Of a DNA stretch of 14,700 nucleotides, positions 1 to 14,274 are shown in pieces. Position 1 is the first letter of the stretch, and each line of letters begins with the position of its first letter. The stretch is taken from the UHGV virus genome UHGV-0187445. One strand, given 5' to 3'. The DNA is from a virus. The notes under the pieces are model-generated. The model was not told the origin of the DNA, did no database searches, and worked only from the letters and a program-made list of their open reading frames with translations. Position numbers and translations under genes: made by a program.

Positions 1-122
1 GTCAGCGGCATAACGTCAGTAACGGATGGCGGCCAGTGAAAAATGGTGGCGATATCTGCCACCAGATCGTCAACCGTCAGGCTGTCGGTAAACCGGCAAG
101 CACCGACTTCTTCAACAAAAAA
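1..122 (-). CDS. E': E' extension of the E+E' tail assembly chaperone, copy 1 (partial; reached by -1 frameshift at slippery T TTT TTG, plus-strand 116..122); continues past window start
   Basis: Minus-strand -1 frame downstream of the heptamer is open to position 1 and encodes ...VADIATIFHWPP..., homologous to the copy-2 E' tail (...MADIAVIFHWRP...). Confidence 0.6.
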
Positions 123-379
123 GTGACAACCTCAACCGACATGGCAGTGAGATCTGCCGGGTCCATCTCTGCAATTTCCTGTGCAGTCAGTGCCGGACTG
201 GAGATGCGGGGGATCACGGTCATCATCGCGTTTACATCCATATCCATAATGGCCTGCAGGCGTGTACCGCGCAGCGCACCGGACTGCGGTTTACGCAGCA
301 CAATTTCGGTGATTTCTGTTTTACCGCGCTTGATGGGGGTATCCAGTTGAATGGTCTTTTCAGTCTGCTTATCGCTCAT
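77..379 (-). CDS. E: Phage tail assembly chaperone gpE (P2 E family), copy 1
   Basis: 100 aa ORF directly downstream of tube gene; contains in-frame ACT TTT TTG slippery heptamer near 3' end; position and size as P2 E. Confidence 0.85.
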   Translation of the reverse strand: MSDKQTEKTIQLDTPIKRGKTEITEIVLRKPQSGALRGTRLQAIMDMDVNAMMTVIPRISSPALTAQEIAEMDPADLTAMSVEVVTFLLKKSVLAGLPTA

Positions 380-433: not shown

Positions 434-949
434 TCAGAGGCCGAGGGCGTTGCGGTGCGCTTCCATCAGGTCCACACCGTCCACAATTTCCACCATGTTG
501 ATAAGGTCCACTTCATAGAGCACCTCACCATTGATGGTCAGCTTCGCGTAGCTGTTGGTACTGGTCACTTTGGTGGTGTTGCTTTCGCCCGTCTTCCACT
601 CGCCGGAATCCACTTCTTTGTGACGTCCACGCACGACAAGCTCCACGGCCTGCACTTCCCCGGTATCGTCACGCTGGATAGAGCCGGTAAAGCGCAGTTG
701 GATGCCATCCACCGTGGATTTGCCCATCTGCTTAAACAGCAGCAGTTCAGTACCACCAATGGAAAATTCTGTGTCCAGCGCACTGTCATCAAGCCCCAGA
801 TCCACATCCACCGCACCCGGCATTCCGCCGCCGCGATACTTCTCATATTTGCGGGTAAATTTCGGCAGCGTCAGCGACTCAACGATCCCCTGCCAGTTGT
901 TCCCGTCGTTAAACAGGTTCAGGTGTTTTAATTTGCGTGGTAAAGCCAT
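434..949 (-). CDS. FII: Phage major tail tube protein (P2 FII family), copy 1
   Basis: 171 aa, MALPRKLK... N-terminus and ...HRNALGL C-terminus typical of P2 FII; immediately downstream of sheath gene. Confidence 0.9.
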   Translation of the reverse strand: MALPRKLKHLNLFNDGNNWQGIVESLTLPKFTRKYEKYRGGGMPGAVDVDLGLDDSALDTEFSIGGTELLLFKQMGKSTVDGIQLRFTGSIQRDDTGEVQAVELVVRGRHKEVDSGEWKTGESNTTKVTSTNSYAKLTINGEVLYEVDLINMVEIVDGVDLMEAHRNALGL

Positions 950-958
950 GTTGTCCCC

Positions 959-2131
959 TTACGCGCTGACCTGGCTGGCGAAATTCACCAGGTACTGATC
1001 GGTGATGCGCTGACGCAGCATCAGGTTTTCAAGTGGCGGCACTGGCGTGTAGTCGTAGTCGATGGTGAGTTTTCCGGCTTTCAGCGTGTCTTTGTCGTTC
1101 ACCGACTCATCCAGCCAGCAATCACCACCAATGAGATAGCCCTGACTGACCAGGCTGCGCATTTTGGCGCGGATGCCCTCGATAATGTCGCGCGCCAGCG
1201 ACGGGTTCAGCGGTTTGTCCACTGCCCACATGTGTGCTTCTGCCATCGTGTCCATCAGCACCTGCGCCGTGCGGGTGTAGTTTTCGAAGGCAAAGAGCGG
1301 GTCATCACTCAGGCAGCGGGAACCCCAGAAGCGGAAACCGTCTTTGCGGATAAGGGTGGTGACGTCGTTCTGGTTCAGCAGTCCAGCATCGGTTGCCGTG
1401 TCCTGCAGATCCCAGAACACATCAGCAGAAATTCCAGTGACACCGTTAACGCCCACATTGGACAGGCTTTTGTGCCATCCGGTCTGCTCGTCAATTTTGG
1501 CGCGCAGACCAAGCGCACGAGCGGTGGCATATGCCGTTGCTTCGGCATTCAGCACCGTGTCCCAGCCAGTAAAGTCAGGCCAGATCAGCATCCCTTCGCG
1601 CTGGCTGAAGTTTTCGCGGTAAGTGATCGCCTCCTGCACTGTCTTGCAGCCATACGCTGACAGGTAAGCAAATCCACGCAGGCTTTGCGCCACGCTCAGC
1701 AACTCAGTAGCCACCGCCTTGGTGTCGTGGCCTGGCACGCCGAGAATGCGCGGTTTAACGCCGAGCTGTGACTGGGCAGATAACAGGGCTTTCATACCTG
1801 TTTTTTTACCTTCAGCAGTCACTGCGCCGATGATATTGGTCGTGGTTTCGTCTTCCGTTTCACCCTGCGGCACACGCACAACAATGGTCACGGGTTTTGC
1901 CTGGTCAGCGATGGCATCCAGCGAACGGGCCAGAGTACCGGACTCACCCGCTTTACCGCTGGCAGTCAGCACATCAGTGATCAGCACGGGTTTATTAAGA
2001 GGAAACATTTTTGCATCGGCATCATCGCCCGTGCAGACCATACCCACGATGGCGGTGCTCACCGTGGTAATAGATCGGGTGCCTTCGTTGACTTCAACAA
2101 CGCGCACCCCGTGGTGGTAATCCTGAGCCAT
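959..2131 (-). CDS. FI: Phage contractile tail sheath protein (P2 FI family), copy 1
   Basis: 390 aa; ...DYHHGV...[13 protein letters not shown]...[12 protein letters not shown]... motifs typical of P2 FI; AGGAGG RBS 8 nt upstream of ATG at 2131. Confidence 0.9.
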
Positions 2132-2207: not shown

Positions 2208-2225
2208 TGTGTCGTTATTCACACA
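2208..2225 (-). promoter_or_regulatory. TGT-N12-ACA dyad (P2 late-promoter Ogr/Delta-type activator site), candidate P_F of module 1
   Basis: TGTgtcgttattcacACA seen directly; centre about 85 bp upstream of FI(1) ATG. Confidence 0.5.
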
Positions 2226-2273
2226 AAATAACGGTATTTGTCTGCTTGCAGGGATAATCAACATAATGCTGAT

Positions 2274-2840
2274 TCAGGGGGATTCATTGATCTTATTTGC
2301 CGGAAATTTTCTATAAATGGTAGAAACGCCTACATCAAAAATCAGTGCAATACGCTGTCTTGATTCTCCGGCCTCGAGTAAACGCCCAATCTGTGCCCAC
2401 TGTTCGGTGGTCAACTTAGGACGGCGTCCACCTACTCTGCCTTTGGCACGAGCTGCAGCCAGCCCTGCCCTGGTACGTTCAACTATCAGTTCGCGTTCCA
2501 TTTCAGCCAGGGCACCCATGACATGAAAAAAGAAACGGCCCATTGGGGTACTGGTATCAATACTGTCAGTCAGGCTTCTGAAATTCACACCACGCTGGCG
2601 CAACTCTTCTATCAGCGTAACAAGATGCCGCATACTGCGCCCCAACCTGTCCAGCTTCCAGACAACCAGCGTGTCTCCTGCCGATAGTGTCCTGAGTAGT
2701 TTTTTCAGCCCCGGTCTGTCGGACTTAGTGCCACTGATTTTGTCCTCAAAAATCCGCTCACATCCCGCGCAGTTCAGTGCATTACGTTGCAAATCGGTGT
2801 TCTGGTCATTTGTTGACACGCGTACATAGCCAATAAGCAT
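2274..2840 (-). CDS. Serine DNA invertase (Hin/Gin/Pin/Cin family), invertase A
   Basis: 188 aa from ATG at 2840 (AGGGGG RBS 6 nt upstream; ORF track start 2846 is 2 codons further). MLIGYVRVSTNDQ catalytic-serine N-terminus, ...GRFFFHVMGALAEMERELIVERT... and C-terminal HTH region typical of the family. Confidence 0.9.
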   Translation of the reverse strand: MLIGYVRVSTNDQNTDLQRNALNCAGCERIFEDKISGTKSDRPGLKKLLRTLSAGDTLVVWKLDRLGRSMRHLVTLIEELRQRGVNFRSLTDSIDTSTPMGRFFFHVMGALAEMERELIVERTRAGLAAARAKGRVGGRRPKLTTEQWAQIGRLLEAGESRQRIALIFDVGVSTIYRKFPANKINESP

Positions 2841-2867
2841 GATCATCCCCCTGAATAAAAACCGGAG

Positions 2868-3389
2868 ATGATGCCAGTTAGCTGTTACCTCTGCATTTTC
2901 TTAAACGTTGGTTTAGGGGAAGGCTCTGCGCTGCCTGTTGGTGTGCCTGTTCCATGGCCTTCAGCCACACCGCCAACAGGCTGGCTGAAATGCAACGGTG
3001 CGGCTTTTTCTGCTGAAGATTACCCTAATCTGGCAAAGGCTTACCCGACGTTAAAATTGCCTGATTTACGCGGTGAGTTTATTCGTGGCTGGGATGGTGG
3101 AAAGGGAGTGGATAGTGGGCGAACTCTGCTTTCAGCACAAGGAGATGCTATCCGAAACATTACCGGGGTGGTTGGCTACAGTTCAATTGGCGATTCACAA
3201 GGGTTATTAGGATACGTGTCAGGGGCCTTTTCGGCTTCGGAGTCAAAAGCTCCCGCATTAAGTGGTGCATCAGCATCCGGGTATCAACGCTCCCTGTATG
3301 CGAATTTTAATGCTTCAGCCGTTGTCCCAACCGCAAATGAGAACCGCCCACGTAACATTGCCTTTAATTATATTGTGAGGGCTGCATAA
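2868..3389 (+). CDS. Tail fibre variable C-terminal cassette (tail-collar-type domain), lacking a constant N-terminal fibre region
   Basis: 173 aa; ...PVGVPVPWPS...GWLKCNGAAFSAEDYPNLAKAYP...LPDLRGEFIRGWD... and C-terminal ...NIAFNYIVRAA resemble Mu S / P1 S-type fibre C-termini; in-frame stop only 3 codons upstream of ATG (2856..2858). Confidence 0.75.
   Translation: MMPVSCYLCIFLNVGLGEGSALPVGVPVPWPSATPPTGWLKCNGAAFSAEDYPNLAKAYPTLKLPDLRGEFIRGWDGGKGVDSGRTLLSAQGDAIRNITGVVGYSSIGDSQGLLGYVSGAFSASESKAPALSGASASGYQRSLYANFNASAVVPTANENRPRNIAFNYIVRAA
2896..2921. repeat. hix/gix-like 26 bp recombination site, left (TTTTCTTAAACG TT GGTTTAGGGGAA; core TT at 2908..2909)
   Basis: Half-sites show 8/12 dyad symmetry around a 2 bp core; resembles Hin-family crossover sites; 55 bp from invertase A start. 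Confidence 0.65.
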
Positions 3390-3991
3390 TGGATAACGCT
3401 GTATTAAATAGCGAGATTATTGCCACGAAGGCAGGGAATATTACCGTCTATAACTATGATGGTGAAATACGGGAATATATTTCCACTTCAAATGAATATC
3501 TTGCCGTTGGTGTTGGTATCCCGGCATATTCCTGTTTAGATTCACCAGGCACATATAAGGCTGGTTATGCTATCTGCCGTTCTGCAGATTTTAACTCATG
3601 GGAATATGTGCCAGACCATCGCGGTGAAATCGTCTATAACACCGAAACGGGAGAAGCCAAAGAAATCACAACTCCGGGTGATTACCCTGAAAATACAACC
3701 ACTATCGCCCCGTTAACGCCATACGATAAATGGGATGGTGAGAAATGGGTGACCGATACTGAGGCACAGCACGGCGCAGCAGTAGATGCAGCAGAAGCAC
3801 AGCGCCAGTCGCTGATTGATACTGCAATGGCCTCCATCAGTCTGATTCAACTGAAATTACAGGCCGGACGGAAGCTGACGCAGGCAGAAACAACCCGCCT
3901 TAACACTGTGCTGGATTACATTGACGTGGTGACGGCAACAGATACCAGCACAGCGCCGGACGTCATCTGGCCTGAACTGCCGGAGGCGTAG
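3389..3991 (+). CDS. Tail fibre assembly chaperone (Tfa/U family)
   Basis: 200 aa; start overlaps upstream stop (TAATG); C-terminal ...DVIWPELPEA motif typical of Tfa proteins. Confidence 0.8.
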   Translation: MDNAVLNSEIIATKAGNITVYNYDGEIREYISTSNEYLAVGVGIPAYSCLDSPGTYKAGYAICRSADFNSWEYVPDHRGEIVYNTETGEAKEITTPGDYPENTTTIAPLTPYDKWDGEKWVTDTEAQHGAAVDAAEAQRQSLIDTAMASISLIQLKLQAGRKLTQAETTRLNTVLDYIDVVTATDTSTAPDVIWPELPEA

Positions 3992-4403
3992 GCCATTCAA
4001 TATCTGGCGCACCGGAAGTATCGACCAGTTCCAGTGCGTACAGATAATCCAGCCACAAATTATATTGCGCCAGTTCCTCACCTTTCAGGCGACAAATCGC
4101 CGCTTTACCAGCCCATTGTCTACTGTTCATATAATCGTTGGCCTGATTAATCAATTGCTGCTTTTTAGTTTCGACTGATGCAATTTGTTCTTCACGTGTT
4201 GGCGGTGGAACATCTGCCCATGCTGGCATTCCATCGTCTCCGGTAATTCTGTACTTACCGTCAGGCGGCGTATCATGGAAATATTCCCTGAAAATAGCTT
4301 CGTCTATATCCACGCCTTTACCTTCGGGCCATTGGCCTTTTGCAGCGTAAACAGACTGGAGGGCATAAGGGTACGCCAGATTATCAACATACAAATATTT
4401 CAT
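3963..4403 (-). CDS. Alternative tail fibre assembly chaperone (Tfa/U' family)
   Basis: 146 aa; C-terminal ...DIEWPTPP... motif; convergent with and overlapping the other tfa by 29 bp. Confidence 0.8.
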   Translation of the reverse strand: MKYLYVDNLAYPYALQSVYAAKGQWPEGKGVDIDEAIFREYFHDTPPDGKYRITGDDGMPAWADVPPPTREEQIASVETKKQQLINQANDYMNSRQWAGKAAICRLKGEELAQYNLWLDYLYALELVDTSGAPDIEWPTPPAVQAR

Positions 4404-4405
4404 AA

Positions 4406-4735
4406 TTAACGCCCTTTCGCGTAGAAGGCTCCACCTTCAAAGCCATAGTTACAATGAGCAACGAAACCTGTTTTCGTCCAGTTAGTTGCGCCCCACATAT
4501 TCCCACCACCAAAACCGCCGTCATATACAATCACTACGTCTGGCTCCTGCGTAAAAGGAATGGTGAAAGTCACATTTGTAGATACCGCCGCGGCGTTATT
4601 CGGGAAATTAATTCTTCCCCACTGTTCAATTGAACCATCAGGCAATTTTTGCCAGCCAGATCCTGATGAATAAGCTGACATATCAGGTATCTGATTTTCC
4701 CCTGTTCCCACATTCCGTTTTGCCGCTTCTCCCAA
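4406..4735 (-). CDS. Alternative tail fibre variable C-terminal cassette (no ATG; ORF-track start is TTG; frame open only to 4759)
   Basis: 109 aa C-terminal glycine-rich fibre tip; N-terminus (..CIFKNVGLGE..) is encoded by the right crossover site and matches the left cassette's CIFLNVGLGE; stop at 4760..4762 immediately outside. Confidence 0.7.
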   Translation of the reverse strand: MGEAAKRNVGTGENQIPDMSAYSSGSGWQKLPDGSIEQWGRINFPNNAAAVSTNVTFTIPFTQEPDVVIVYDGGFGGGNMWGATNWTKTGFVAHCNYGFEGGAFYAKGR

Positions 4736-4752
4736 ACCAACGTTTTTGAAAA
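4727..4752. repeat. hix/gix-like 26 bp recombination site, right (inverted copy; core AA at 4739..4740 on plus strand)
   Basis: Reverse complement reads TTTTCAAAAACG TT GGTTTGGGAGAA, matching the left site at 22 of 26 positions; 54 bp from invertase B start. Confidence 0.65.
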
Positions 4753-4806
4753 TGCATAATTATTAGCCGAATGGCATGATTTATCGTTTTAAAGGAATGA
4801 AAAACC

Positions 4807-5388
4807 ATGCTTATTGGATATGTGCGCGTATCAACAAATGACCAGAACACGGCTTTGCAACGTGATGCGCTTGAGCGGTCAGGATGTGAGCTAATTTTTG
4901 AAGATAAAATGAGCGGGAGAACAGCGGAAAGGCCAGGGCTTAAAAAATTACTAAAGCGCCTTTCTCCAGAAGATACGCTTGTTGTCTGGAAGCTGGATCG
5001 TCTTGGGCGGAGTATGCGGAACTTGGTCATTCTGGTGGAGGAACTAAAGCAACGTTCCGTGAACTTCCGCAGCCTGACTGACAGTATTGATACCTCAACA
5101 CCAATGGGGCGTTTCTTTTTTCATGTTATGGGAGCACTGGCAGAGATGGAGAGAGAATTGATTGTCGAGCGTACGCGTGCAGGACTGGTGGCCGCTCGCG
5201 CGCAGGGAAGGATCGGCGGTAGACGTCCAAAACTAACACCAGAACAATGGGCGCAGGCGGGTAGGTTAATAGCGGCAGGGGAATCGCGCCGGAGGGTTGC
5301 CATAATTTATGATGTTGGGATATCTACGCTTTACAAAAAATTCCCAGCGACCAGAGATAAGAATTCCGGCACGCATGGCCGGTTATAA
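4807..5388 (+). CDS. Serine DNA invertase (Hin/Gin/Pin/Cin family), invertase B
   Basis: 193 aa; AAGGAA RBS; about 80% amino-acid identity by eye to invertase A, in opposite orientation. Confidence 0.9.
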   Translation: MLIGYVRVSTNDQNTALQRDALERSGCELIFEDKMSGRTAERPGLKKLLKRLSPEDTLVVWKLDRLGRSMRNLVILVEELKQRSVNFRSLTDSIDTSTPMGRFFFHVMGALAEMERELIVERTRAGLVAARAQGRIGGRRPKLTPEQWAQAGRLIAAGESRRRVAIIYDVGISTLYKKFPATRDKNSGTHGRL

Positions 5389-5472
5389 CCGTGCTGGCCG
5401 TGTGTATCGAGTACGGTCACTTTTAACGGTGCTGTAGCACGGTCAGTTATGGTGGTGTATTACGGAAGACGA

Positions 5473-5496
5473 AGCGGGCAATGGCCCGCTTTTCTT
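5473..5496 (+). terminator. Rho-independent terminator hairpin (AGCGGGC-aatg-GCCCGCT followed by TTTTCTT), overlapping the stop codon of U on the other strand
   Basis: 7 bp GC-rich stem plus T-tract seen directly; lies between convergent invertase B and U. Confidence 0.6.
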
Positions 5497-5944
5497 ATAT
5501 CGAAAGGTTGGTTTTCACCAGAGAGAAGAGATCGTCGGTAGTGGTTTCAGCCAGCTTTTCCCGTATGTCCTCGCTTACCCGTTTCAGGTTGAGCGTGAAA
5601 TCAATTTTCTTTGCCTTCCCGTCCTTAAAAAACTCCGTCCGGTTTTGCGTGATCTGCTCAATTACATACATGCCGTAGATCCTGCCCGTGCCTTCTATCA
5701 GGGGCCACGGGCGCCCGGAAAAAGCCATAGTTTCCAGCATGACAAGCGACACATCACCGCCGCTTATTTCGGGGTACAGCGTGCCGCTGAGTACGAACGG
5801 TTCTTCATCTGCGCCGATGAACTGATAGCGCGGGGATTTCCCCACGCGATCGTTTTTGACGTGCCGCCAGGAGTTGGTTTTATTCGCACTCTGGTAAGGT
5901 GTGGTTTGCAGTGAAAAGGGGAACATCCCCAGAATCATCATCAT
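5495..5944 (-). CDS. U: Phage tail protein gpU (P2 U family), module 2
   Basis: 149 aa; MMMILGMF... N-terminus and ...WPLIEGTGRIYGMYVIEQ... typical of P2 U; directly downstream of T. Confidence 0.85.
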   Translation of the reverse strand: MMMILGMFPFSLQTTPYQSANKTNSWRHVKNDRVGKSPRYQFIGADEEPFVLSGTLYPEISGGDVSLVMLETMAFSGRPWPLIEGTGRIYGMYVIEQITQNRTEFFKDGKAKKIDFTLNLKRVSEDIREKLAETTTDDLFSLVKTNLSI

Positions 5945-5953
5945 GATATTGCC

Positions 5954-8881
5954 TTAGACGTGATCGGTCAGTTGGGAGCGCTTGCGCCGGTCGGCCTGTT
6001 GCTTCGCTAACGCAAGTTCTTCGCGCACGCGCCTGATAATGGTTTCTTCATCCAGTTTCTGGCCGCTAAAGTCGAAGTTAAGGTTATATACATCGCCACC
6101 CGGAGCAGGCATCAGCGCAGCGACGGAAGCCGCAGACGGAGACGCCGAAACAGGCATCCGTGCGGCGGGCTTCTCAACCTGCCAAGGCGTAACGGAAGCG
6201 ATCAGCGATCCGGCCTGCTGCGTCACCCAATCGGTAAGGGATGGTAGCTGGCGCTGCGCCTGCTTAAGCGGTTCCGAATATCCGCCACGGATCGGGATAT
6301 AGGGCTGCTTATTCTTGAAGACAATTTCGCCGGGGCCGTCTTTCTTCTCCGTGGTATTGGTGGCGATCTTGTCCAGGCTGTTGCTCATCTTCGGCACGAT
6401 GTTGGCCGGGCCTTTGAGCGAGTTAATCAGGTTGTCCTGTTTCTTCTGCTCATCGGTTTTCTTTTTCTCTTCGGCTTTTTTGCTTTCCTTCGCGACTGCC
6501 TGCACGTCACCGGAAAAGGCGTTAACCCGGTCTGCCAGATTGTTTACCGCTTCCGGCGTCATTTGCTGCGCAACCTGCTGCGCTGCTTTCGCTGCGTCGG
6601 GAATGGCGCCCAGCTTTTCCAGAATCCAGCCCAGCCCTTTGGCTACGGCCTGAATGGGAAGCGTCAGCGCGCTGATTGCGGCCCCAACCACCTTACCGAA
6701 GGTTTCCCCTGCACTGGTGCAGGATGCCAGCGCTTCACTGGAAAACTGGATCGGCTCCAGTAGTTTGGTAAACCATTCCCAGACGCCGCTGATCGCGTTG
6801 CCGATACTGTTAAAAATCGGGGCCAGTGGTGCGAATACGGCGTTAAACGACTGCGTTATTGGTTGAAGGCCAGCCATCAGACCGGTAAAGAAGCCGCTGA
6901 AAAATGCCTTAATCGGTTGCCAGAATTTAATTACGGCCACTGCTACCGCAGCAAAGAGAGCAATCAGCCCCCAGACGGGCGCAGAAATGCCAGCCAGTAG
7001 CGTGATAAGCGGGCCGAATACCATGCGACCGGCGCTTAACAATGCCTGCATAGGCGAGCCAGCAAGCCACTGGAACGCACCACCCAGGCGCATTACTCCG
7101 CCAGTCAGACGCGCTATTCCTCCTTCCCCGGCCAGCGAGGTGAAGCTGAGGCGAACAAGTGCCATTGGGCCAAGTACTGCGCCGATGGACAGCATCAGGC
7201 CACCCATGACAACCAGCAAAGCGCCTATGGCTGCGGTGACTTTCATGATTGAACCAACCAGCGCTGGGTTTGCCTCCACCCAGCGGCGGACGCTGCCAAC
7301 CACCTTACTGACGGTAAGCATGATATCCATCAGCGGATCGCGAAGGGTTTCACCTGCTGAACTGAATGCGTTAACCGCGCCGGTTTTGGTCAGTTGCCAT
7401 TGAGCAGAAAGGGAAGCTTTATTGATATCAGACTCCCTATTCATGGAACCTTTAGCGGCTGCGCCCTGCGTCAGTTCTATCTGGCGGCGTAGTTCGGGCA
7501 GGTTGTTGGCAAGTTTCTGCGCATCATCGCCGAACTCTTTGCCAAAAATCTGGGTAAGGTTGGCTACCTGCTGATCCGGGGCCAGTTTTTTGGACGCTTC
7601 CAGCACTGAAATGATTGTGCCCATCGCGTCCACTGACATGCTCTTCTGAACTTTTTCGGCGCTGAGGCCGAGGGCGTCCAGACCCTGCATAAAGTTTTTG
7701 CCCTGAACCGTAGCGATTGAGAGTTCGCGCACCATTGCATTGGTGGCGCTGGCGGCAACTTCGGCAGGGGTGCCGAGCGTCAGAAAGGTGGAACCCAGCG
7801 CGGCGGCTTGCTTGTAATCCAGTTGGCTGGCAAGCCCACCAACGCGCTGGAGTACGTCGATAATATCGGAGCCTTTCGACTTCGCGTTATCGTCCAGGTA
7901 GTTTATGGCGTCGCCTAACTGTTCAATATTCTGGGTGGGGATTTTATACAGCCCGGCAATTTTCCCCAGGCTTTCAGAAAGCTGATCGGCGGGCAGTTCA
8001 AAGGCTACCGAAGCTTTTGCCGCCATGCTGGCAAAAGACAGCAGATCGGCTTTTTGCTTTTGCCAGGGATCATCGCTGTTTGCGACGCCCATACGCGCGC
8101 CGCCTTCGACCAGGGCGGCATAGTCAACAGCACCGTTAGCCATTGGCAGCTTTTCGCTGGCATCCATGATCGCCCGCTGCATTTCTTCATACTGCGGGGT
8201 GCGGTTGCCGCTGTCGTCACGTAAGCCATTTACCTGTTTGGCTACGCCCTTCATCGCGTCTTCGAGGCTGCTGTAGGATTTCACCGCAGCGGCGACAGGT
8301 ACGAGTGTTGCCGCCCCTACTGCGGCGGTTTTCATTCCCCCGCTCATCATCTTTTCGCCGGTTTCTTTGGCGCGGCTGTAACGGGCCTGCGCCTGGTTAA
8401 CAGCGTCAAGCCGTCGTTGCTGTTCAGCAAGCTGGCGGTTGTATTGCGCGGTGCGCTGGTTGATCTGTTCCGTCGCCCGGCTGGCGCTGCTGATCGCAAT
8501 GCCTTCGCTGTAGAAGCTGGCCCGCAACTGGTTAAGCTGCGTCTGCTCGCCTTTCTGCTGCTGGGTTAACTGGCGAATGGCTGCACGTTGCTGATTGAGG
8601 GCGGCAACTTGTTCGGCGCTGCGCTGGCGTAACGGGCCATAAGCCGCCGCCATTTGCCGGGCCTGTTCTTTCGCCTGGGCCAGTTGTTCGGTGGTTTTTT
8701 TATTGGCTGCGGTGAGGCGGTCAAAGCTGGTTGCCTGACGCTCAAGCCCTTTAATGCTGGTTTTAGTCTGGTTGATTTGAGACGCCAACGCGGCGGCACT
8801 CTGGCGCGCCGCGTTGACAGGGCGGGACATATTATTCAGGGCGCTGAATGCCACCCTGATATTTAAATTGCGGTCTGCCAT
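5954..8881 (-). CDS. T: Phage tail tape measure protein (P2 T family), module 2
   Basis: 975 aa; N-terminal coiled-coil-rich region, central hydrophobic segments, position between E' and U. Confidence 0.9.
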   Translation of the reverse strand: MADRNLNIRVAFSALNNMSRPVNAARQSAAALASQINQTKTSIKGLERQATSFDRLTAANKKTTEQLAQAKEQARQMAAAYGPLRQRSAEQVAALNQQRAAIRQLTQQQKGEQTQLNQLRASFYSEGIAISSASRATEQINQRTAQYNRQLAEQQRRLDAVNQAQARYSRAKETGEKMMSGGMKTAAVGAATLVPVAAAVKSYSSLEDAMKGVAKQVNGLRDDSGNRTPQYEEMQRAIMDASEKLPMANGAVDYAALVEGGARMGVANSDDPWQKQKADLLSFASMAAKASVAFELPADQLSESLGKIAGLYKIPTQNIEQLGDAINYLDDNAKSKGSDIIDVLQRVGGLASQLDYKQAAALGSTFLTLGTPAEVAASATNAMVRELSIATVQGKNFMQGLDALGLSAEKVQKSMSVDAMGTIISVLEASKKLAPDQQVANLTQIFGKEFGDDAQKLANNLPELRRQIELTQGAAAKGSMNRESDINKASLSAQWQLTKTGAVNAFSSAGETLRDPLMDIMLTVSKVVGSVRRWVEANPALVGSIMKVTAAIGALLVVMGGLMLSIGAVLGPMALVRLSFTSLAGEGGIARLTGGVMRLGGAFQWLAGSPMQALLSAGRMVFGPLITLLAGISAPVWGLIALFAAVAVAVIKFWQPIKAFFSGFFTGLMAGLQPITQSFNAVFAPLAPIFNSIGNAISGVWEWFTKLLEPIQFSSEALASCTSAGETFGKVVGAAISALTLPIQAVAKGLGWILEKLGAIPDAAKAAQQVAQQMTPEAVNNLADRVNAFSGDVQAVAKESKKAEEKKKTDEQKKQDNLINSLKGPANIVPKMSNSLDKIATNTTEKKDGPGEIVFKNKQPYIPIRGGYSEPLKQAQRQLPSLTDWVTQQAGSLIASVTPWQVEKPAARMPVSASPSAASVAALMPAPGGDVYNLNFDFSGQKLDEETIIRRVREELALAKQQADRRKRSQLTDHV

Positions 8882-9082
8882 TTAGTGATCTCCACCACTG
8901 CGCGCAGCCGCCTGATCACGCCATAACAGTATTTCCTGTACCGTCATGGCGTCCATCTCTACCGGCCGCCAGTGGAATATGACGGCGATATCTGCCATCA
9001 GGTCTTCTATGCGTTCGCAGGGGCATCGGATGATTCGTTGCCCGTATCCGTCGCGGTCAGATCCGAAGAGGGTTGCAAAAAA
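8882..9082 (-). CDS. E': E' extension of E+E' fusion, module 2 (-1 programmed frameshift at T TTT TTG, plus-strand 9076..9082); full E+E' spans 8882..9342
   Basis: Hand translation of the -1 frame from the heptamer gives a stop-free 66-codon tail (FATLFGSDRDGYGQRIIRCPCERIEDLMADIAVIFHWRPVEMDAMTVQEILLWRDQAAARSGGDH) ending at TAA 8882..8884, directly abutting the T start codon (TAAATG). Confidence 0.75.
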   Translation of the reverse strand, partial: FFATLFGSDRDGYGQRIIRCPCERIEDLMADIAVIFHWRPVEMDAMTVQEILLWRDQAAARSGGDH

Positions 9083-9342
9083 TCAACCACCGCGTTGGCT
9101 AGCTGGCAAAAATCCCAGGTATCCATACGGGCAATCTCATCGGCGGTTAGTGCCGGAGCGGTAACGCGGGGCAGCAGAATAACCAGCGCGTCATAGTTGG
9201 AAGTCAGCACGTCATAGGCTTTTAAGCCGCGCAGTGATCCAGCCTGTTTAAGCACGGAAGTGATCGCCACTTCGGTGATTTTGGTCTTACCGCGCGTAAT
9301 AGGGGCGGTAAGAATAACGGTGTTTTCTTTGGTTTTGCTCAT
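9007..9342 (-). CDS. E: Phage tail assembly chaperone gpE, module 2
   Basis: 111 aa; in-frame GAT TTT TTG heptamer 25 codons before the stop; downstream of tube gene. Confidence 0.85.
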   Translation of the reverse strand: MSKTKENTVILTAPITRGKTKITEVAITSVLKQAGSLRGLKAYDVLTSNYDALVILLPRVTAPALTADEIARMDTWDFCQLANAVVDFLQPSSDLTATDTGNESSDAPANA

Positions 9343-9356
9343 GGTGCCGGGTTTCC

Positions 9357-9872
9357 TTATAGGCCGATGTTAGCGCGGTGTTTTTCCAGCACATCCACAC
9401 CGGCAACTTTGTAGATCATGTTGAGCACATCAACTTCGATAATCTCTTCGCCGTTGATGGTCAGCTTGTAATAGGTGTTTTTCAGGGTGTACTTATGCGA
9501 AGTGTCATCCCCGACTTTTGCCGAACCGGGATCCAGTTCAGTGAAGCGGCCACGCGTCTGGATTTCGCACGGTACAGCGTCGCCGGTTGCGTCGTCCTGA
9601 TAGGAGCCAGCAAAACGTGTTTGCATCCCGTCCGCAGTGGTAACGCCCCATTTTTTCAGCAATCCGGCATCCAGACCGCCAAGCGTGATATCCATATCCA
9701 GGGCGCCAGCGTCGAAGCCAAGATCCACCGCAACCGAACCTGGCATACCACCCGCCTGGTAGTCTTCGGTTTTTTTGGTGAGTTTGGCGGGGGTGATTTC
9801 CGGCACCATGCCGAAGTAGTTATCCCCGTCAAAGAACATATTGAAATATTTGAGTTTCTTAGGCAGTGCCAT
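9357..9872 (-). CDS. FII: Phage major tail tube protein (P2 FII family), module 2
   Basis: 171 aa; MALPKKLKYFNMF... and ...HRANIGL; same length as module-1 FII but highly diverged. Confidence 0.9.
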   Translation of the reverse strand: MALPKKLKYFNMFFDGDNYFGMVPEITPAKLTKKTEDYQAGGMPGSVAVDLGFDAGALDMDITLGGLDAGLLKKWGVTTADGMQTRFAGSYQDDATGDAVPCEIQTRGRFTELDPGSAKVGDDTSHKYTLKNTYYKLTINGEEIIEVDVLNMIYKVAGVDVLEKHRANIGL

Positions 9873-9884
9873 AAGCGCCCCCGG

Positions 9885-11078
9885 TTAGTTATTCACTGCG
9901 CTGGAAAACGTAGCGAAATATTCGTCGGTGAACTCCTGTACCAGGCTGAGATTTTCCAGCGGTGGAACAGGGGTGTAGTTGTACTTAATGGTCAGTTGAC
10001 CATTGCGCAGGGTTTCCGAGGTATTCGGTTCCGGGTCATACCAGCAGCGGGCGCCCAGCAGCTTGCCAGCCGTCACGTATGAGGTCAGCTTCTTATTGAT
10101 GCCGTCCACAATGTCCTTTACCAGCGACGGGGTAAGCGGTTTATCAACATAGGCGAAATGGGCTTCGGCGACGGTATCCGCAACTATCTGCGCGGTTCGG
10201 GTATAGCTTTCGAAGATATACGTTTCCGCGTCGCAGGTACGCGATCCCCAGATGCGGTAGCCGTCCTGCTTGATCAGCGTGGTAACGCCTGCTGCGTTCA
10301 GTTCGTCGGCGTCGGTATCGGTGCCCTGCAACGTGAAATAGATATCCCGATCCATCCCCAGCACGTTATTAACGGGCACGTTGGAAATGGTTTTATGCCA
10401 GCCCTGCGTTGCGTCGATTTTGGCTCGCATCCCAACAGCATGGGCACCCACGGGCACGGTGGCATTAGCCCCGGCGTTGGTGTCGTAGCAGATGAAATTA
10501 GGCCAGATAACCATCATTTCACGCTGGGAGAATTGCTCGCGGTATTCCTTCACTTCGGCGATTGTGTTGCAACCGTTCGCTGCCACGTAAGCAAACGCGC
10601 GCAGCTTTTCGGCAATGACGCCGAGTTGTGCGGCTACCGCTTCCGTATCAAGCCCTGGAACAGCCAGTACACGCGGGCGCACACCTACGCGCATTTCGGC
10701 AGACAGCAGCGCGTACATGCCGGTAAAGCGCCCGTTTGCATCGGTGCCGCCAATAACCAGTTGATCCTGGGTCTGTGCGGTGCCGCCTTCTGGCGGTTCG
10801 ATATTTGCAGCATCAGCAACGCGGATCACAATGGTTTGCGGGCTGGTCTGGTCTGAAATCGCTTTCAGGGTGGTAAACAGGGTGCCGGTTTTACCTGCCT
10901 TGCCCAGCATGTTAGCCACGCGGGTAATCAGTACAGGGGTATCCAGCGGGAACGCTGTTTCGTCCGCATCATCAGCGGTGCAGACAACGCCGATCACCGC
11001 CGAATCAATGTCGGTGATCATCGTGCTAAGGTCGGTGGTTTCCGTGACGGTTACACCGTGATGGTAGTTAGTGGCCAT
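9885..11078 (-). CDS. FI: Phage contractile tail sheath protein (P2 FI family), module 2
   Basis: 397 aa; ...NYHHGV...TTLIKQDGYRIWG...[12 protein letters not shown]...; roughly half the residues identical to module-1 FI by eye. Confidence 0.9.
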   Translation of the reverse strand: MATNYHHGVTVTETTDLSTMITDIDSAVIGVVCTADDADETAFPLDTPVLITRVANMLGKAGKTGTLFTTLKAISDQTSPQTIVIRVADAANIEPPEGGTAQTQDQLVIGGTDANGRFTGMYALLSAEMRVGVRPRVLAVPGLDTEAVAAQLGVIAEKLRAFAYVAANGCNTIAEVKEYREQFSQREMMVIWPNFICYDTNAGANATVPVGAHAVGMRAKIDATQGWHKTISNVPVNNVLGMDRDIYFTLQGTDTDADELNAAGVTTLIKQDGYRIWGSRTCDAETYIFESYTRTAQIVADTVAEAHFAYVDKPLTPSLVKDIVDGINKKLTSYVTAGKLLGARCWYDPEPNTSETLRNGQLTIKYNYTPVPPLENLSLVQEFTDEYFATFSSAVNN

Positions 11079-11150
11079 GTATTTGCCTCGCCAGTTTAAT
11101 GACTGCGAATATCATTGCGGCAATGGCGGGCCGATGCGATGGATAAGGGT

Positions 11151-11168
11151 TGTCAGCAACCTGCAACA
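11151..11168. promoter_or_regulatory. TGT-N12-ACA dyad (P2 late-promoter activator site) between divergent FI(2) and D
   Basis: TGTcagcaacctgcaACA seen directly; centre about 81 bp upstream of FI(2) ATG and about 77 bp upstream of D ATG. Confidence 0.5.
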
Positions 11169-11235
11169 ATGACGGGGCGTTGTTCATGCGCGCGCGCGTG
11201 GCGACGATGTACCCCATCATGATGAAGGGGTTGAT

Positions 11236-12354
11236 ATGGACACGACAGAAAACCGATATTCGCCGCGCCCGGCGTTCAGTATTGAGATTGAAGGTAAGCA
11301 GCTTACGGCGCTGGATAACCGGCTGATCTCCCTTTCCCTGACAGATAACCGGGGCTTTGAAGCGGACACGCTGGATCTGACTCTGGATGATGCAGACGGG
11401 CAGGTAGCCTTACCATCACGCGGCGCAAAGATATCGGTGGCGCTGGGCTGGGATAATGATCCATTGGTTTTTAAGGGCGTGTATACGGTTGACGAGATCG
11501 GACACTCTGGCCCGCCTGACCAGCTAACGATCAGTGCCAGAAGCGCAGATTTCCGCGATACCTTTAACGTGAAGAGGGAATATAGCTGGCACGATATTAC
11601 CGTGGGGGATGTGGTTGCCAGCATTGCCAGCCGTTACGATCTGCGTGCGGGCGTCAGCGAAGAACTGGCGAAGATTGAGATAGATCACGCCGATCAGACG
11701 AGTGAATCAGATATCAGCTTCTTAACGCGCATGGCCGAAATGCTGGGCGCGGTGGCAACCATTAAAAACGGTATGCTTCTGTTTATCACGCCGGGCAAGG
11801 GAGTAACGCAGAGCGGCAAGCCGCTGCCGGTGATCGAGATAGTCCGGTCAAGCGGTGATAAACATCGGTTTAACGTAGCTGACCGCGACGCGTACACGGG
11901 CGTAACTGCATACTGGCTTGATCTCAACTTTGGCAAGAAACCATCCACTACCGTGAAGAAAACCACCCGCAGGCGACGAACCAGCCAGGCCAAAAAGAAA
12001 GAACCCGCATCAAGCAAAAAAGAAGGGGATTATCTGGCCGGGGCCGAAGGCAACGTTTTTGTTATCCGTAAAACCTTCAAGACGGAAAAGGCGGCAAAGC
12101 GTGCCGCAGCGGCTAAGTGGCGGGAGTTGCAGCGCGGGGCGGCTACGTTCAGCATCACCCTGGCGCGTGGGCGCGCGGATTTGTACCCGGAACAGCCAGC
12201 CAGTGTTTATGGGTTTAAGTCCACGATCGACAGTGGAAGCTGGACGATAACACGGTGCGTTCACGATGTTGGCGGGGGAGGGTTTACCACGTCGCTGGAA
12301 CTGGAAGTAAAAATCGACGACTGGACAGCGGAGAGTGACGATTCAACGTCTTAA
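11236..12354 (+). CDS. D: Phage late control / tail protein gpD (P2 D family)
   Basis: 372 aa; ...DLTLDDADGQVALPSRGAKISVALGW...GPPDQLTISARSADFRDTFNVKREYSW...DAYTGVTAYW... typical of P2 D; GAAGGGG RBS. Confidence 0.85.
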   Translation: MDTTENRYSPRPAFSIEIEGKQLTALDNRLISLSLTDNRGFEADTLDLTLDDADGQVALPSRGAKISVALGWDNDPLVFKGVYTVDEIGHSGPPDQLTISARSADFRDTFNVKREYSWHDITVGDVVASIASRYDLRAGVSEELAKIEIDHADQTSESDISFLTRMAEMLGAVATIKNGMLLFITPGKGVTQSGKPLPVIEIVRSSGDKHRFNVADRDAYTGVTAYWLDLNFGKKPSTTVKKTTRRRRTSQAKKKEPASSKKEGDYLAGAEGNVFVIRKTFKTEKAAKRAAAAKWRELQRGAATFSITLARGRADLYPEQPASVYGFKSTIDSGSWTITRCVHDVGGGGFTTSLELEVKIDDWTAESDDSTS

Positions 12355-12402
12355 GCGTTATACTTGCGTTGATATTAACCAGTCATGAAAGGAGGCCCGC
12401 GT

Positions 12403-12645
12403 ATGGCAATGCGCTGTCCTCGCTGCCGTGCTATAGCAAAAACCAGAACCAGCGTTGAGCTGAGTTTGCTTGTACGGCGCAGCTATCACCAGTGTCAAAA
12501 CATGTTATGCGGGTACTGTTTCACCAGCATGACGGAAATAGACGGTTCATTAAACCAGACCCAGCCAGCGCCCGGCGCGATGGTGCCACAAGAAGCTTTT
12601 CCACGAAGTCACCACGGCGAAGATCAGCTATCGCTGGCACTGTAA
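12403..12645 (+). CDS. ogr: Late-gene transcriptional activator, Ogr/Delta zinc-finger family
   Basis: 80 aa from ATG at 12403 (AAAGGAGG RBS 7 nt upstream); CPRC ... HQCQNMLC Cys4 motif matching the Ogr ...YHQCQN.C signature; follows D as in P2. Confidence 0.8.
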   Translation: MAMRCPRCRAIAKTRTSVELSLLVRRSYHQCQNMLCGYCFTSMTEIDGSLNQTQPAPGAMVPQEAFPRSHHGEDQLSLAL

Positions 12646-12647
12646 AA

Positions 12648-12676
12648 ATAACCCGCCTACATGGCGGGTTTCTTAT
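12648..12676 (+). terminator. Rho-independent terminator after ogr (ACCCGCC-tacat-GGCGGGT then TTCTTAT)
   Basis: Hairpin plus U-rich tract seen directly, 5 nt after ogr stop. Confidence 0.6.
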
Positions 12677-12734
12677 ACCTGTTACCCCTGATATTATTTT
12701 TCAACTTTCACAGTGGTGCTTAAAAGGTAGGGAT

Positions 12735-13118
12735 ATGAAAAAGTTAATCATGGTACTTGCGCTGTTTAGCCTTGTTGGATGTAAGCCCGGTGCTGATAAA
12801 GCGGTTGAGTTGGGGCAGAAAGAAGTTGCTTCAAGTATGCGCGATCCTGATAGCGCGAAATTCAGGTATGTACGTTTTGTTCAGAAAGACGAAGCTGCTG
12901 ATGGTGCTGTTGTCGGTTACGTCTGCGGGCAGGTAAACGCCAAAAATGCGTTTGGTGCGTATGCTGGTTTTGCACCTTTTGAAATGGAATTGTCGATGAA
13001 GTCGAAGGGGTTCTTCTCAAAAGGGGTAACTTACTCTGTATTTAACAAGCAACTGTATTCAGACCCAGGACAGGTAAACATGGCCGAATATACGAAGAAG
13101 TGCGGCCCTGATCAATAG
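12735..13118 (+). CDS. Small lipoprotein of unknown function (signal peptide with lipobox LVGC); candidate prophage cargo
   Basis: 127 aa from ATG at 12735 (GGTAGGG RBS); MKKLIMVLALFSLVGC lipoprotein signal; no family recognised by eye. Confidence 0.65.
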   Translation: MKKLIMVLALFSLVGCKPGADKAVELGQKEVASSMRDPDSAKFRYVRFVQKDEAADGAVVGYVCGQVNAKNAFGAYAGFAPFEMELSMKSKGFFSKGVTYSVFNKQLYSDPGQVNMAEYTKKCGPDQ

Positions 13119-13290: not shown

Positions 13291-13371
13291 ATCCTCAATT
13301 TGCCTGCTGCTTAATGCATTGCAGATGATTTGCTTCCGTTATACTAGCGTCAGTTGATAGCGGGAGTATTT

Positions 13372-14274
13372 ATGAATCAATCTTATGGACGGCTGGTCAG
13401 TCGGGCGGCGATTGCTGCGACGGCGATGGCTTCGTTGCTATTGCTGATTAAAATTTTTGCATGGTGGTATACCGGGTCGGTGAGTATTCTCGCCGCGCTG
13501 GTGGATTCGCTGGTGGATATCGGCGCGTCGTTGACGAATTTACTGGTGGTGCGATATTCCCTGCAACCTGCCGACGATAATCACTCGTTTGGTCACGGTA
13601 AAGCTGAGTCCCTCGCGGCGCTGGCGCAAAGTATGTTTATCTCCGGTTCGGCACTATTCCTGTTTTTGACGGGTATTCAACATCTGATATCTCCAACACC
13701 GATGACAGATCCAGGCGTTGGGGTTATCGTGACAATTGTGGCGCTAATTTGTACGATTATCCTTGTCTCGTTTCAGCGTTGGGTGGTGCGGCGGACGCAA
13801 AGCCAGGCGGTGCGGGCTGATATGCTACATTACCAGTCTGATGTTATGATGAACGGTGCAATTCTGCTGGCGCTGGGGTTGTCCTGGTACGGCTGGCATC
13901 GCGCCGATGCTCTGTTTGCATTGGGAATCGGCATCTATATTTTATATAGCGCGTTACGCATGGGATATGAGGCGGTACAGTCATTACTGGATCGCGCATT
14001 GCCTGATGAGGAACGGCAAGAAATTATTGATATCGTGACTTCCTGGCCGGGTGTTAGCGGCGCTCACGATCTTCGCACGCGGCAGTCAGGGCCGACCCGC
14101 TTTATTCAGATTCATTTGGAAATGGAAGACTCTCTGCCTTTGGTTCAGGCACATATGGTGGCGGATCAGGTAGAGCAGGCTATTTTACGGCGTTTTCCGG
14201 GATCGGATGTGATTATCCATCAGGACCCCTGTTCCGTCGTACCCAGGGAGGGTAAACGGTCTATGCTTTCATAA
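13372..14274 (+). CDS. fieF: Ferrous-iron/zinc efflux cation diffusion facilitator FieF (YiiP)
   Basis: 300 aa from [13 protein letters not shown]...; recognised as E. coli FieF; ORF-track start at 13354 is an upstream in-frame extension. Confidence 0.93.

What the first reader, a model, noticed from the sequence alone, without database searches (positions are those of the whole stretch)
11079..11235. Single late-promoter dyad placed almost symmetrically between divergent FI(2) and D
TGT-N12-ACA (11151..11168) is the hallmark of P2 late promoters activated by Ogr. Its centre lies about 81 bp from the FI(2) start and about 77 bp from the D start on the other strand. Because the dyad is symmetric, one activator-binding site could serve both divergent genes, which may be how D kept late expression after being separated from its operon. 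The corresponding dyad for module 1 (2208..2225) sits about 85 bp from FI(1), supporting the assignment.
Basis: partly seen in the sequence, partly recalled or inferred. Interest (0 to 1): 0.5.

Follow-up and report, generated by a model that had tools for sequence, protein, structure and literature searches.

The report
Two-way P2-type phage late promoter

Summary
TGT-N12-ACA lies at 11151..11168, with its centre 81.5 bp from the FI(2) ATG and 76.5 bp from the D ATG. The bare pattern is not significant in this window (4 hits against 3.0 expected); the support comes from comparison with relatives.

The divergent FI/D layout is not a local accident. It is 100% identical in E. coli 0H26 and 97% identical in the plaque-forming Salmonella phages SEN4/SEN5. 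It is present in all 135 relatives examined, with D identity down to 59% and about 20 enterobacterial genera. Relatives with D identity of 57% or less keep the P2 order U-D.

In 98 unique spacers the arms of the dyad are kept while the inner 12 nt vary. A -10-like hexamer (nAnnAT) sits 43.5-48.5 bp from the dyad centre on both sides. In the window these are AATGAT (11116..11111, toward FI) and GACGAT (11203..11208, toward D). P2 promoters with mapped starts have the same spacing.

As a control, canonical P2-like phages have the phased hexamer on the FI side only (24/26 groups, against 1/26 on the far side).

P2's own GenBank record annotates one shared activator site for the divergent P and O promoters, so the mechanism has a precedent. 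The verdict is a new member of a known kind. Dependence on Ogr has not been tested.

The parts
11151..11168 (.). Single TGT-N12-ACA dyad (TGTCAGCAACCTGCAACA), the predicted Ogr binding site shared by both promoters; centre at 11159.5
   Evidence: It is conserved in position, with a variable inner 12 nt, in 98 unique spacers from 135 loci: 76 perfect, 18 with one mismatch, 4 with two.
11111..11116 (-). -10-like hexamer AATGAT of the FI-side late promoter (PF), 43.5-48.5 bp from the dyad centre; predicted start near 11104, leader about 26 nt
   Evidence: The offset matches P2 PP, PO and PF, whose starts are mapped. A2 and T6 are kept at this column in 29 of 32 groups and in 24 of 26 canonical groups.
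11203..11208 (+). -10-like hexamer GACGAT of the D-side promoter (PD), 43.5-48.5 bp from the dyad centre; predicted start near 11215-11216, leader about 21 nt
   Evidence: A2 and T6 are kept at this column in 24 of 32 groups, plus 6 shifted by one. The equivalent side of canonical phages has it in 1 of 26 groups.
11180..11198 (+). D-side upstream element: weak -35-like TTGTTC (11180..11185), 17 bp from the hexamer, followed by alternating GCGCGCGCGCG (11188..11198)
   Evidence: The PV and PP promoters of the same phage type share this layout. PD and PV are 57% identical without gaps over columns 19-65, against a background of about 30%.
5495..11078 (-). Inverted tail operon FI(2)-FII(2)-E/E'-T-U, read from the FI-side promoter
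   Evidence: ORFs; Pfam Phage_sheath_1 and Phage_P2_GpU; RefSeq and SEN5 annotation; terminator-like hairpin at 5471..5492 beyond U.
11236..12354 (+). Gene D (baseplate hub, Phage_GPD), first gene of the D-side unit
   Evidence: Pfam PF05954, E = 5.4e-19. The ORF is intact and conserved in 135 loci.
12403..12645 (+). ogr (Ogr/Delta zinc finger, CX2CX22CX4C), co-directional with D; a possible own promoter lies at 12335..12364
   Evidence: Pfam PF04606, E = 1.5e-13. It lies just after D in 78 of 80 viral loci and on the same strand in 54 of 55 genomic loci. Promoter-like site GTGACG-18-TATACT.
12650..12678 (+). Hairpin AACCCGCC-TACAT-GGCGGGTT followed by TTTCTTAT: the likely terminator of the D-ogr unit, possibly working in both directions

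Best explanation
The FI(2)-D spacer is a bidirectional Ogr-type late promoter with one activator site. Inferred mechanism: Ogr, encoded just downstream of D, binds the dyad at 11151..11168. That places it about 55 bp upstream of two start points, near 11104 on the minus strand (FI-FII-E-T-U) and near 11215 on the plus strand (D, probably reading on into ogr). From there it recruits RNA polymerase through the alpha subunit to two weak -10 hexamers that face away from each other. Shown here: the dyad, the two phased hexamers, their conservation, and the absence of the far-side hexamer in phages where no gene sits there. Inferred: the start sites, Ogr binding, Ogr dependence, and read-through into ogr. 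In evolutionary terms, an ancient inversion of the FI-U block, with its promoter, set D against the back of the PF dyad, and a promoter phased to that dyad is now maintained there.
For: 1. Geometry. The hexamers AATGAT and GACGAT both lie 43.5-48.5 bp from the dyad centre. In P2 the GenBank-annotated starts of PP (3016) and PO (3127) both fall at column 65 of their shared site, with hexamers at columns 53-58, and PF starts at columns 66-68. The predicted window starts are 111 bp apart, the same as P2 PP/PO.
2. Precedent. The P2 record annotates one 'activator binding site; pO, pP promoters'. Smp131 PP'/PO' are assigned to one dyad.
3. The cognate prophage (E. coli 0H26) has perfect dyads at P/O, at V and at FI/D, with hexamers at the same columns.
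4. Conservation. All 135 relatives have FI divergent from D. Across 32 spacer groups at 75% identity or less, A2 and T6 sit at column 53 in 24 groups on the D side and 29 on the FI side; no other offset exceeds 6. No insertions or deletions occur between dyad and hexamer, although the D ATG moves from column 65 to about column 88.
5. Control. In canonical phages the figures are 24 of 26 on the FI side and 1 of 26 on the far side.
6. The D side shares its layout with PV and PP of the same phages.
7. No autonomous sigma-70 promoter of 9/12 or better is positioned in the spacer to drive D, apart from one unconserved chance-level hit.
8. SEN4/5 forms plaques and myovirus particles with this layout, so D must be expressed.
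9. Ogr binds inverted repeats centred near -55 and contacts RNA polymerase alpha (PMC3152322).
Against: There are no transcription-start, binding or expression data for this phage group; every functional step rests on sequence comparison. The D-side hexamer GACGAT matches TATAAT at only 3 of 6 positions. Eight of 32 groups lack A2 and T6 exactly at column 53 on the D side; six of these have them one column over, and some of the others are probably mis-anchored. The weak -35-like TTGTTC at 17-bp spacing leaves room for some Ogr-independent activity. The statement that P2 PP/PO share one site comes from a database annotation and a secondary paper, because the primary papers could not be read here.
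Confidence: 0.8

Rival explanations
1. The dyad activates only the FI-side promoter. D and ogr are read from an independent, Ogr-independent sigma-70 promoter (TTGTTC-17-GACGAT) that happens to lie next to it.
For: A conserved -35-like TTGTY lies 17 bp from the hexamer on the D side. In P2, ogr also has its own Ogr-independent promoter (annotation).
Against: That promoter would match the consensus at only 6 of 12 positions and was not picked up by the sigma-70 scan. Its distance to the dyad is invariant across 32 diverged groups with no insertions or deletions, although the 11 nt between them vary freely. PV and PP of the same phages use the same layout downstream of their own dyads. Constitutive expression of a tail gene in a lysogen would be unusual.
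Confidence: 0.12
2. D has no promoter of its own here. It is silent, or read from somewhere inside or beyond FI, and the prophage is defective for D.
For: One chance-level sigma-70-like hit (TCGCCA-16-TATCAT, 11088..11115, plus strand) lies upstream of the dyad. This particular prophage also has a rearranged tail-fibre region.
Against: The same spacer, 97-100% identical, occurs in plaque-forming SEN4/5 and in intact prophages. The D ORF is intact in 135 loci. The promoter scan found 3 hits in the region against 1.6 expected.
Confidence: 0.04
3. The dyad is a chance motif, or a recombination site of the neighbouring DNA invertase, with the FI-U block as an invertible segment.
For: The raw motif frequency is at chance level in the window. 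An invertase gene lies next to the other end of the block (4807..5388). The left half of the site loosely resembles a hix half-site (my reading, not tested).
Against: No inverted repeat links 5389..5494 with 11079..11235. All 135 loci show one orientation. Several relatives, such as SEN5, have no invertase at all yet have the same layout. The pattern of conserved arms and variable centre fits a protein-binding dyad that is kept.
Confidence: 0.02

Closest known systems
Phage P2 PP/PO divergent late promoters with one shared activator site (NC_001895: site 3057..3087, starts 3016 and 3127)
   Same: One hyphenated dyad lies between two divergent late transcription units. The starts (predicted here, mapped in P2) are 111 bp apart and about 55 bp from the centre. 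The -10-like hexamers occupy columns 53-58 on both sides. A small Ogr/Delta zinc-finger activator is encoded by the phage.
   Different: The genes served differ: tail sheath operon and D-ogr here, terminase/portal and capsid in P2. The site here is a perfect TGT-N12-ACA, whereas P2's is TGT-N12-CCA. The pair exists only in the clade with the inverted FI-U block. No experimental data exist for it.
Phage P2 PF promoter (site 17555..17583, start 17626-17628, FI ATG 17652)
   Same: The FI side here is its positional counterpart: a dyad 81-86 bp from the FI ATG, a hexamer at the same offset, and a leader of about 25 nt. Module 1 of this window (2208..2225) and 24 of 26 canonical groups have the same arrangement.
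   Different: In P2 and other canonical phages PF works in one direction and D is the last gene of the same operon. Their far side lacks a phased hexamer (1 of 26 groups).
Salmonella phages SEN4/SEN5 (Senquatrovirus, Peduoviridae)
   Same: 97% nucleotide identity across FI-spacer-D-ogr, with the same dyad and hexamers (L005). The window's right-hand prophage belongs to this phage type.
   Different: The published description (PMC5261728) does not mention the inversion or late promoters. Its annotation places a hypothetical ORF over the spacer and puts ogr on the wrong strand.
Divergent bacterial promoters that share one symmetric upstream activator site (CRP-type class I activation)
   Same: The same general logic: a symmetric activator site upstream of two outward-facing promoters, with contact through the RNA polymerase alpha subunit. 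This rests on textbook knowledge; for Ogr-alpha contact.
   Different: The activator is an unrelated protein family. This is a resemblance in how it works, not membership.

Membership tests
P2-type (Ogr/Delta-dependent) late promoter | Hyphenated dyad TGT-N12-ACA upstream of the promoter | tested here: met
   A perfect match at 11151..11168, conserved in relatives.
P2-type (Ogr/Delta-dependent) late promoter | Dyad centred about 55 bp upstream of the transcription start | not testable with these tools
   No start-site data are available. Indirect support: the hexamers lie at the same offset (columns 53-58) as in P2 PP, PO and PF, whose annotated starts fall at columns 65-68.
P2-type (Ogr/Delta-dependent) late promoter | Weak core promoter (poor -35, imperfect -10) that needs an activator | tested here: met
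   The FI side has AATGAT and no -35. The D side has TTGTTC-17-GACGAT, a 6 of 12 match. Neither passes the 9/12 sigma-70 scan.
P2-type (Ogr/Delta-dependent) late promoter | A cognate Ogr/Delta zinc-finger activator encoded by the element | tested here: met
   12403..12645: Pfam Ogr_Delta, E = 1.5e-13, with the CX2CX22CX4C motif.
P2-type (Ogr/Delta-dependent) late promoter | Lies directly upstream of a morphogenetic (late) operon | tested here: met
   The sheath operon lies on one side and the baseplate-hub gene D on the other.
P2-type (Ogr/Delta-dependent) late promoter | Transcription depends on Ogr and on the C-terminal domain of RNA polymerase alpha | not testable with these tools
   This needs reporter or in-vitro transcription assays.
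Shared-site bidirectional late promoter pair (P2 PP/PO type) | Exactly one dyad between two divergent late genes | tested here: met
   There is one perfect dyad in the 157-bp spacer. 54 of 56 unique viral spacers have exactly one; L049 has two and L083 has a one-mismatch copy.
Shared-site bidirectional late promoter pair (P2 PP/PO type) | A -10-like element at the same distance from the dyad centre on both strands | tested here: met
   Window: 43.5-48.5 bp on both sides. Clade: 24 of 32 and 29 of 32 groups. Control far side: 1 of 26.
Shared-site bidirectional late promoter pair (P2 PP/PO type) | Both promoters are active late and both are lost when the single site is mutated | not testable with these tools
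   This needs mutagenesis and reporter fusions.

The most novel reading that the evidence does not exclude
A promoter was born on the back of an existing activator site. When an ancestor of this clade inverted the FI-U block together with PF, gene D and ogr landed behind the PF dyad, and a promoter phased to that dyad is now maintained there. Because the dyad is symmetric, one Ogr site could take over a second transcription unit. The result is a small D-ogr unit driven by Ogr itself, a positive feedback loop separated from the bulk tail operon. It would be a natural, phylogenetically datable example of operon splitting made possible by activator-site symmetry.
Probability: 0.6. Interest if true: 0.45.

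Novelty: new member of a known kind. Interest (0 to 1): 0.35.

Why it matters
This result explains how an essential tail gene stays under late control in a large group of P2-like phages and prophages whose tail operon is inverted. The group includes the ICTV genus Senquatrovirus and prophages in about 20 enterobacterial genera. The result gives exact, testable coordinates for two promoters and one activator site. It corrects the annotation of the spacer in the SEN4/5 records. It offers a clean natural case for studying how one symmetric activator site drives two promoters, and how promoters arise after rearrangements. It does not reveal a new mechanism, because P2's own P/O promoters are annotated the same way.

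Tried and rejected
1. Raw motif statistics were rejected as evidence: 4 hits against 3.0 expected in the window, and 11 against 8.1 in the 0H26 locus.
2. The idea that the FI-U block is a currently invertible segment, with the dyad as crossover site, was rejected. No inverted repeat joins its ends and all 135 loci have one orientation.
3. The idea that the D-side promoter is a recent copy of PV is not established. PD and PV of the same phage are 57% identical over columns 19-65 and share 15 of 18 dyad positions. But in a second phage group PV shares only the layout, not the sequence, so a shared promoter grammar is the safer reading.
4. I looked for literature on this promoter or on the inversion (Senquatrovirus, the SEN4/5 paper, xenorhabdicin loci, reports on P2-like prophages). 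Nothing describes it. The xenorhabdicin locus lists its genes in the canonical order sheath...U, D, ogrK.
5. The primary paper Julien and Calendar 1995 could not be opened. The -55 position and the alpha contact are cited from PMC3152322, the consensus from PMC3931495, and the shared P/O site from the GenBank record.
6. Two tool calls failed on term length and one script failed on a file path. No data were lost.

Full report
**What the window is**

The window holds P2-type tail genes next to the E. coli gene fieF (13354..14274). From left to right the genes are:
- E(1), 77..379, minus strand
- FII(1), 434..949, minus strand
- FI(1), 959..2131, minus strand
- a DNA invertase, 2274..2846, minus strand
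- an invertible tail-fibre segment, about 2858..4790
- a second invertase, 4807..5388, plus strand
- U, 5495..5944, minus strand
- T, 5954..8881, minus strand
- E, 9007..9342, minus strand
- FII(2), 9357..9872, minus strand
- FI(2), 9885..11078, minus strand
- D, 11236..12354, plus strand
- ogr, 12403..12645, plus strand

Pfam confirms sheath, GpU, GPD, Ogr_Delta and resolvase.

**Check of the observation**

TGTCAGCAACCTGCAACA lies at 11151..11168. Its centre, 11159.5, is 81.5 bp from the FI(2) ATG and 76.5 bp from the D ATG. The module-1 dyad at 2208..2225 is 85.5 bp from the FI(1) ATG.

The motif alone is not significant. It occurs 4 times in the window against 3.0 expected, and 74 of 200 shuffles do as well.

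**The layout is clade-wide, not local**

The FI-spacer-D-ogr stretch is 100% identical in E. coli 0H26 and its sister strains, and it is present in 31 of 5,426 complete E. coli genomes. It is 97% identical in Salmonella phages SEN4/SEN5, genus Senquatrovirus. Those phages form plaques and myovirus particles (PMC5261728).

In both SEN5 and 0H26 the whole block FI-FII-E-E'-T-U is inverted relative to P2, while D and ogr keep the P2 orientation.

A search with the D protein in viral contigs returned 80 loci, with D identity from 100% down to 65%. All have FI divergent from D and none has U upstream.

A search of one genome per species returned 80 more loci. The 55 with D identity of 59% or more all have the divergent layout. 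They come from Salmonella, Citrobacter, Hafnia, Enterobacter, Pectobacterium, Photorhabdus, Xenorhabdus, Yersinia, Providencia, Morganella, Serratia, Brenneria, Klebsiella, Kosakonia, Erwinia, Pantoea, Edwardsiella and others. The 25 with D identity of 57% or less have the canonical U-D order. The inversion is therefore an old, shared character of one lineage.

**Precedent in P2**

The P2 GenBank record annotates a single 'activator binding site; pO, pP promoters' at 3057..3087, between the divergent P start (3016) and O start (3127). I number columns from the first T of the dyad. The P2 dyad is TGTGTCAGTGATAAGCCA, 3063..3080. On this numbering both starts fall at column 65, and the -10-like hexamers occupy columns 53-58: TAGCCT for PP and GAAACT for PO. 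PF starts at columns 66-68, with GAAAAT at columns 54-59.

A P2-like Stenotrophomonas phage paper likewise assigns PP' and PO' to one dyad, and it states the TGT-N12-ACA consensus (PMC3931495). Ogr binds inverted repeats centred near -55 and acts through the RNA polymerase alpha subunit (PMC3152322).

**Anatomy of the spacer**

With the same numbering, the FI side has AATGAT at columns 53-58 (11116..11111, minus strand). The D side has GACGAT at columns 53-58 (11203..11208, plus strand).

The predicted starts are near 11104 and 11215. They are 111 bp apart, exactly as in P2 PP/PO. The leaders would be about 26 nt for FI (24-26 nt for P2 PF) and about 21 nt for D.

The D side also carries a weak -35-like TTGTTC (11180..11185), 17 bp from the hexamer, and an alternating GC run (11188..11198).

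The cognate intact prophage (0H26) has perfect dyads at only three intergenic places upstream of late genes: P/O, V and FI/D. Their hexamers are TAGCCT, AATGAT and GATACT at the same columns. PD resembles PV of the same phage: 15 of 18 dyad positions and 57% identity over columns 19-65, against about 30% between unrelated pairs. PV of a second phage group shares the layout but not the sequence.

The sigma-70 scan finds no autonomous promoter of 9/12 or better positioned to serve D, apart from one chance-level hit.

**Conservation**

Among 56 unique viral spacers, 55 have a perfect dyad 72-80 nt from the FI ATG, and the remaining one has a single mismatch. The inner 12 nt differ between groups, for example CAGCAACCTGCA, CTTAGAGCCGTG, ATCAGGGCTGAC and CGTGGAACCGCG.

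Pooling all 135 divergent loci gives 98 unique spacers: 76 with a perfect dyad, 18 with one mismatch and 4 with two. These fall into 32 groups at 75% identity or less.

The two most conserved -10 positions (A2 and T6) sit at column 53 in 24 of 32 groups on the D side, with 6 more at column 54. On the FI side the figure is 29 of 32, with 3 more at column 54. No other offset between columns 19 and 78 exceeds 6 (for nine viral groups).

There are no insertions or deletions between dyad and hexamer. The D ATG, by contrast, moves from column 65 in the Yersinia-type group, which implies a leaderless message, to about column 88. The hexamer is therefore tied to the dyad and not to the start codon.

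**Negative control**

I collected 76 FI-upstream regions of canonical, module-1-type P2-like phages, which fall into 26 groups at 80% identity. The FI side has the phased hexamer in 24 of 26 groups; the two exceptions are mis-anchored. The far side has it in 1 of 26. A phased promoter on the back of the PF dyad is thus specific to the lineage in which D sits there.

**Downstream unit**

ogr follows D co-directionally in 78 of 80 viral loci and in 54 of 55 genomic loci. A promoter-like site overlaps the end of D (12335..12364), and a hairpin with a T-rich tail follows ogr (12650..12678). In P2 the record calls the equivalent hairpin the 'terminator for ogr transcript and F operon'. A D-side promoter here would probably also feed ogr, giving positive feedback; this step is inferred.

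**Rival explanations**
- An Ogr-independent D promoter remains possible (confidence 0.12). It does not explain the invariant phase with the dyad, or the shared layout with PV and PP.
- A silent or otherwise-transcribed D (0.04) conflicts with the viable SEN4/5 phages and with the conserved ORF.
- A chance motif or an invertase crossover site (0.02) conflicts with the pattern of conserved arms and variable centre, with the lack of flanking inverted repeats, and with the single orientation seen in 135 loci.

**Verdict**

The feature is a second shared-dyad bidirectional late promoter, of the kind annotated for P2 PP/PO. It serves FI-U on one side and D(-ogr) on the other, in the Senquatrovirus-like clade with an inverted tail operon. 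No paper in the searchable library describes it. It is a new member of a known kind, with moderate interest of 0.35. Dependence on Ogr and the start sites remain to be measured.

Noticed in passing
window 2274..5388 (junction about 4679..4806): The invertible tail-fibre segment (inverted repeats 2858-2922 and 4726-4790) is flanked by two invertase genes in opposite orientation, 73% complementary over 543 nt. No constant N-terminal tail-fibre gene lies on either side. Homology to module-1-type prophages ends near 4743. Homology to the 0H26/SEN4-type prophage begins near 4679, at a hix-like crossover site (TTCTCCCAAACCAACGTTTTTGAAAA, 4728-4753). None of 5,426 complete E. coli genomes has this junction. 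It looks like invertase-mediated recombination between two different P2-like prophages, which would imply a chromosomal inversion, or else an assembly chimera.
   Followed up: partly
window 11188..11198; L002 8655..8667 (PV) and 2261..2271 (PP side): An alternating GC run (GCGCGCGCGCG) fills the gap between the -35-like and -10-like elements in PD, PV and PP of this clade, and it is conserved in most of the 32 spacer groups. PF and PO lack it, and so do the P2 promoters. Its role is unknown; it could affect promoter melting, DNA structure or a further factor.
   Followed up: partly
L066-L082 and L093 (Yersinia-type group), column 65-67; L002 2241..2243: In one subgroup the D ATG sits exactly at the predicted start (column 65), implying a leaderless D message. 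The annotated terminase ATG of the 0H26 prophage likewise falls at column 65 of the P-side promoter. The P2 record also places the V start on the first base of the V ATG.
   Followed up: no
L001 (SEN5, NC_028701.2) 20707..20859 and 22160..22279: The SEN5 record annotates a 50-aa hypothetical ORF on the minus strand across the FI-D spacer (equivalent to window 11068..11220). It also annotates a 'late control protein ogr' on the wrong strand. The real Ogr_Delta ORF is on the plus strand after D. These are probably annotation errors.
   Followed up: partly
window 12735..13118 (+): A 127-aa ORF lies between ogr and the prophage end next to fieF. It starts MKKLIMVLALFSLVGC, which looks like a signal peptide with a lipobox, and it has no Pfam match. 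It is possibly a lipoprotein cargo gene. It is present in 0H26 and SEN5 as a hypothetical protein.
   Followed up: no
window 5471..5492: A GC-rich hairpin (GAAGCGGGCAATGGCCCGCTTT) lies between the convergent invertase and U genes. It is likely a bidirectional terminator that ends the inverted FI-U operon.
   Followed up: no
window 2226..2270 (+ strand, behind the module-1 dyad): The back side of the module-1 PF dyad reads ATTTGTCTGC...GATAAT...CATAAT. This loosely resembles the D-side layout but is out of phase (AACATA at columns 53-58), and it points into the 3' end of the invertase gene. Across 26 canonical groups no phased hexamer is conserved there, so it is probably chance.
   Followed up: yes
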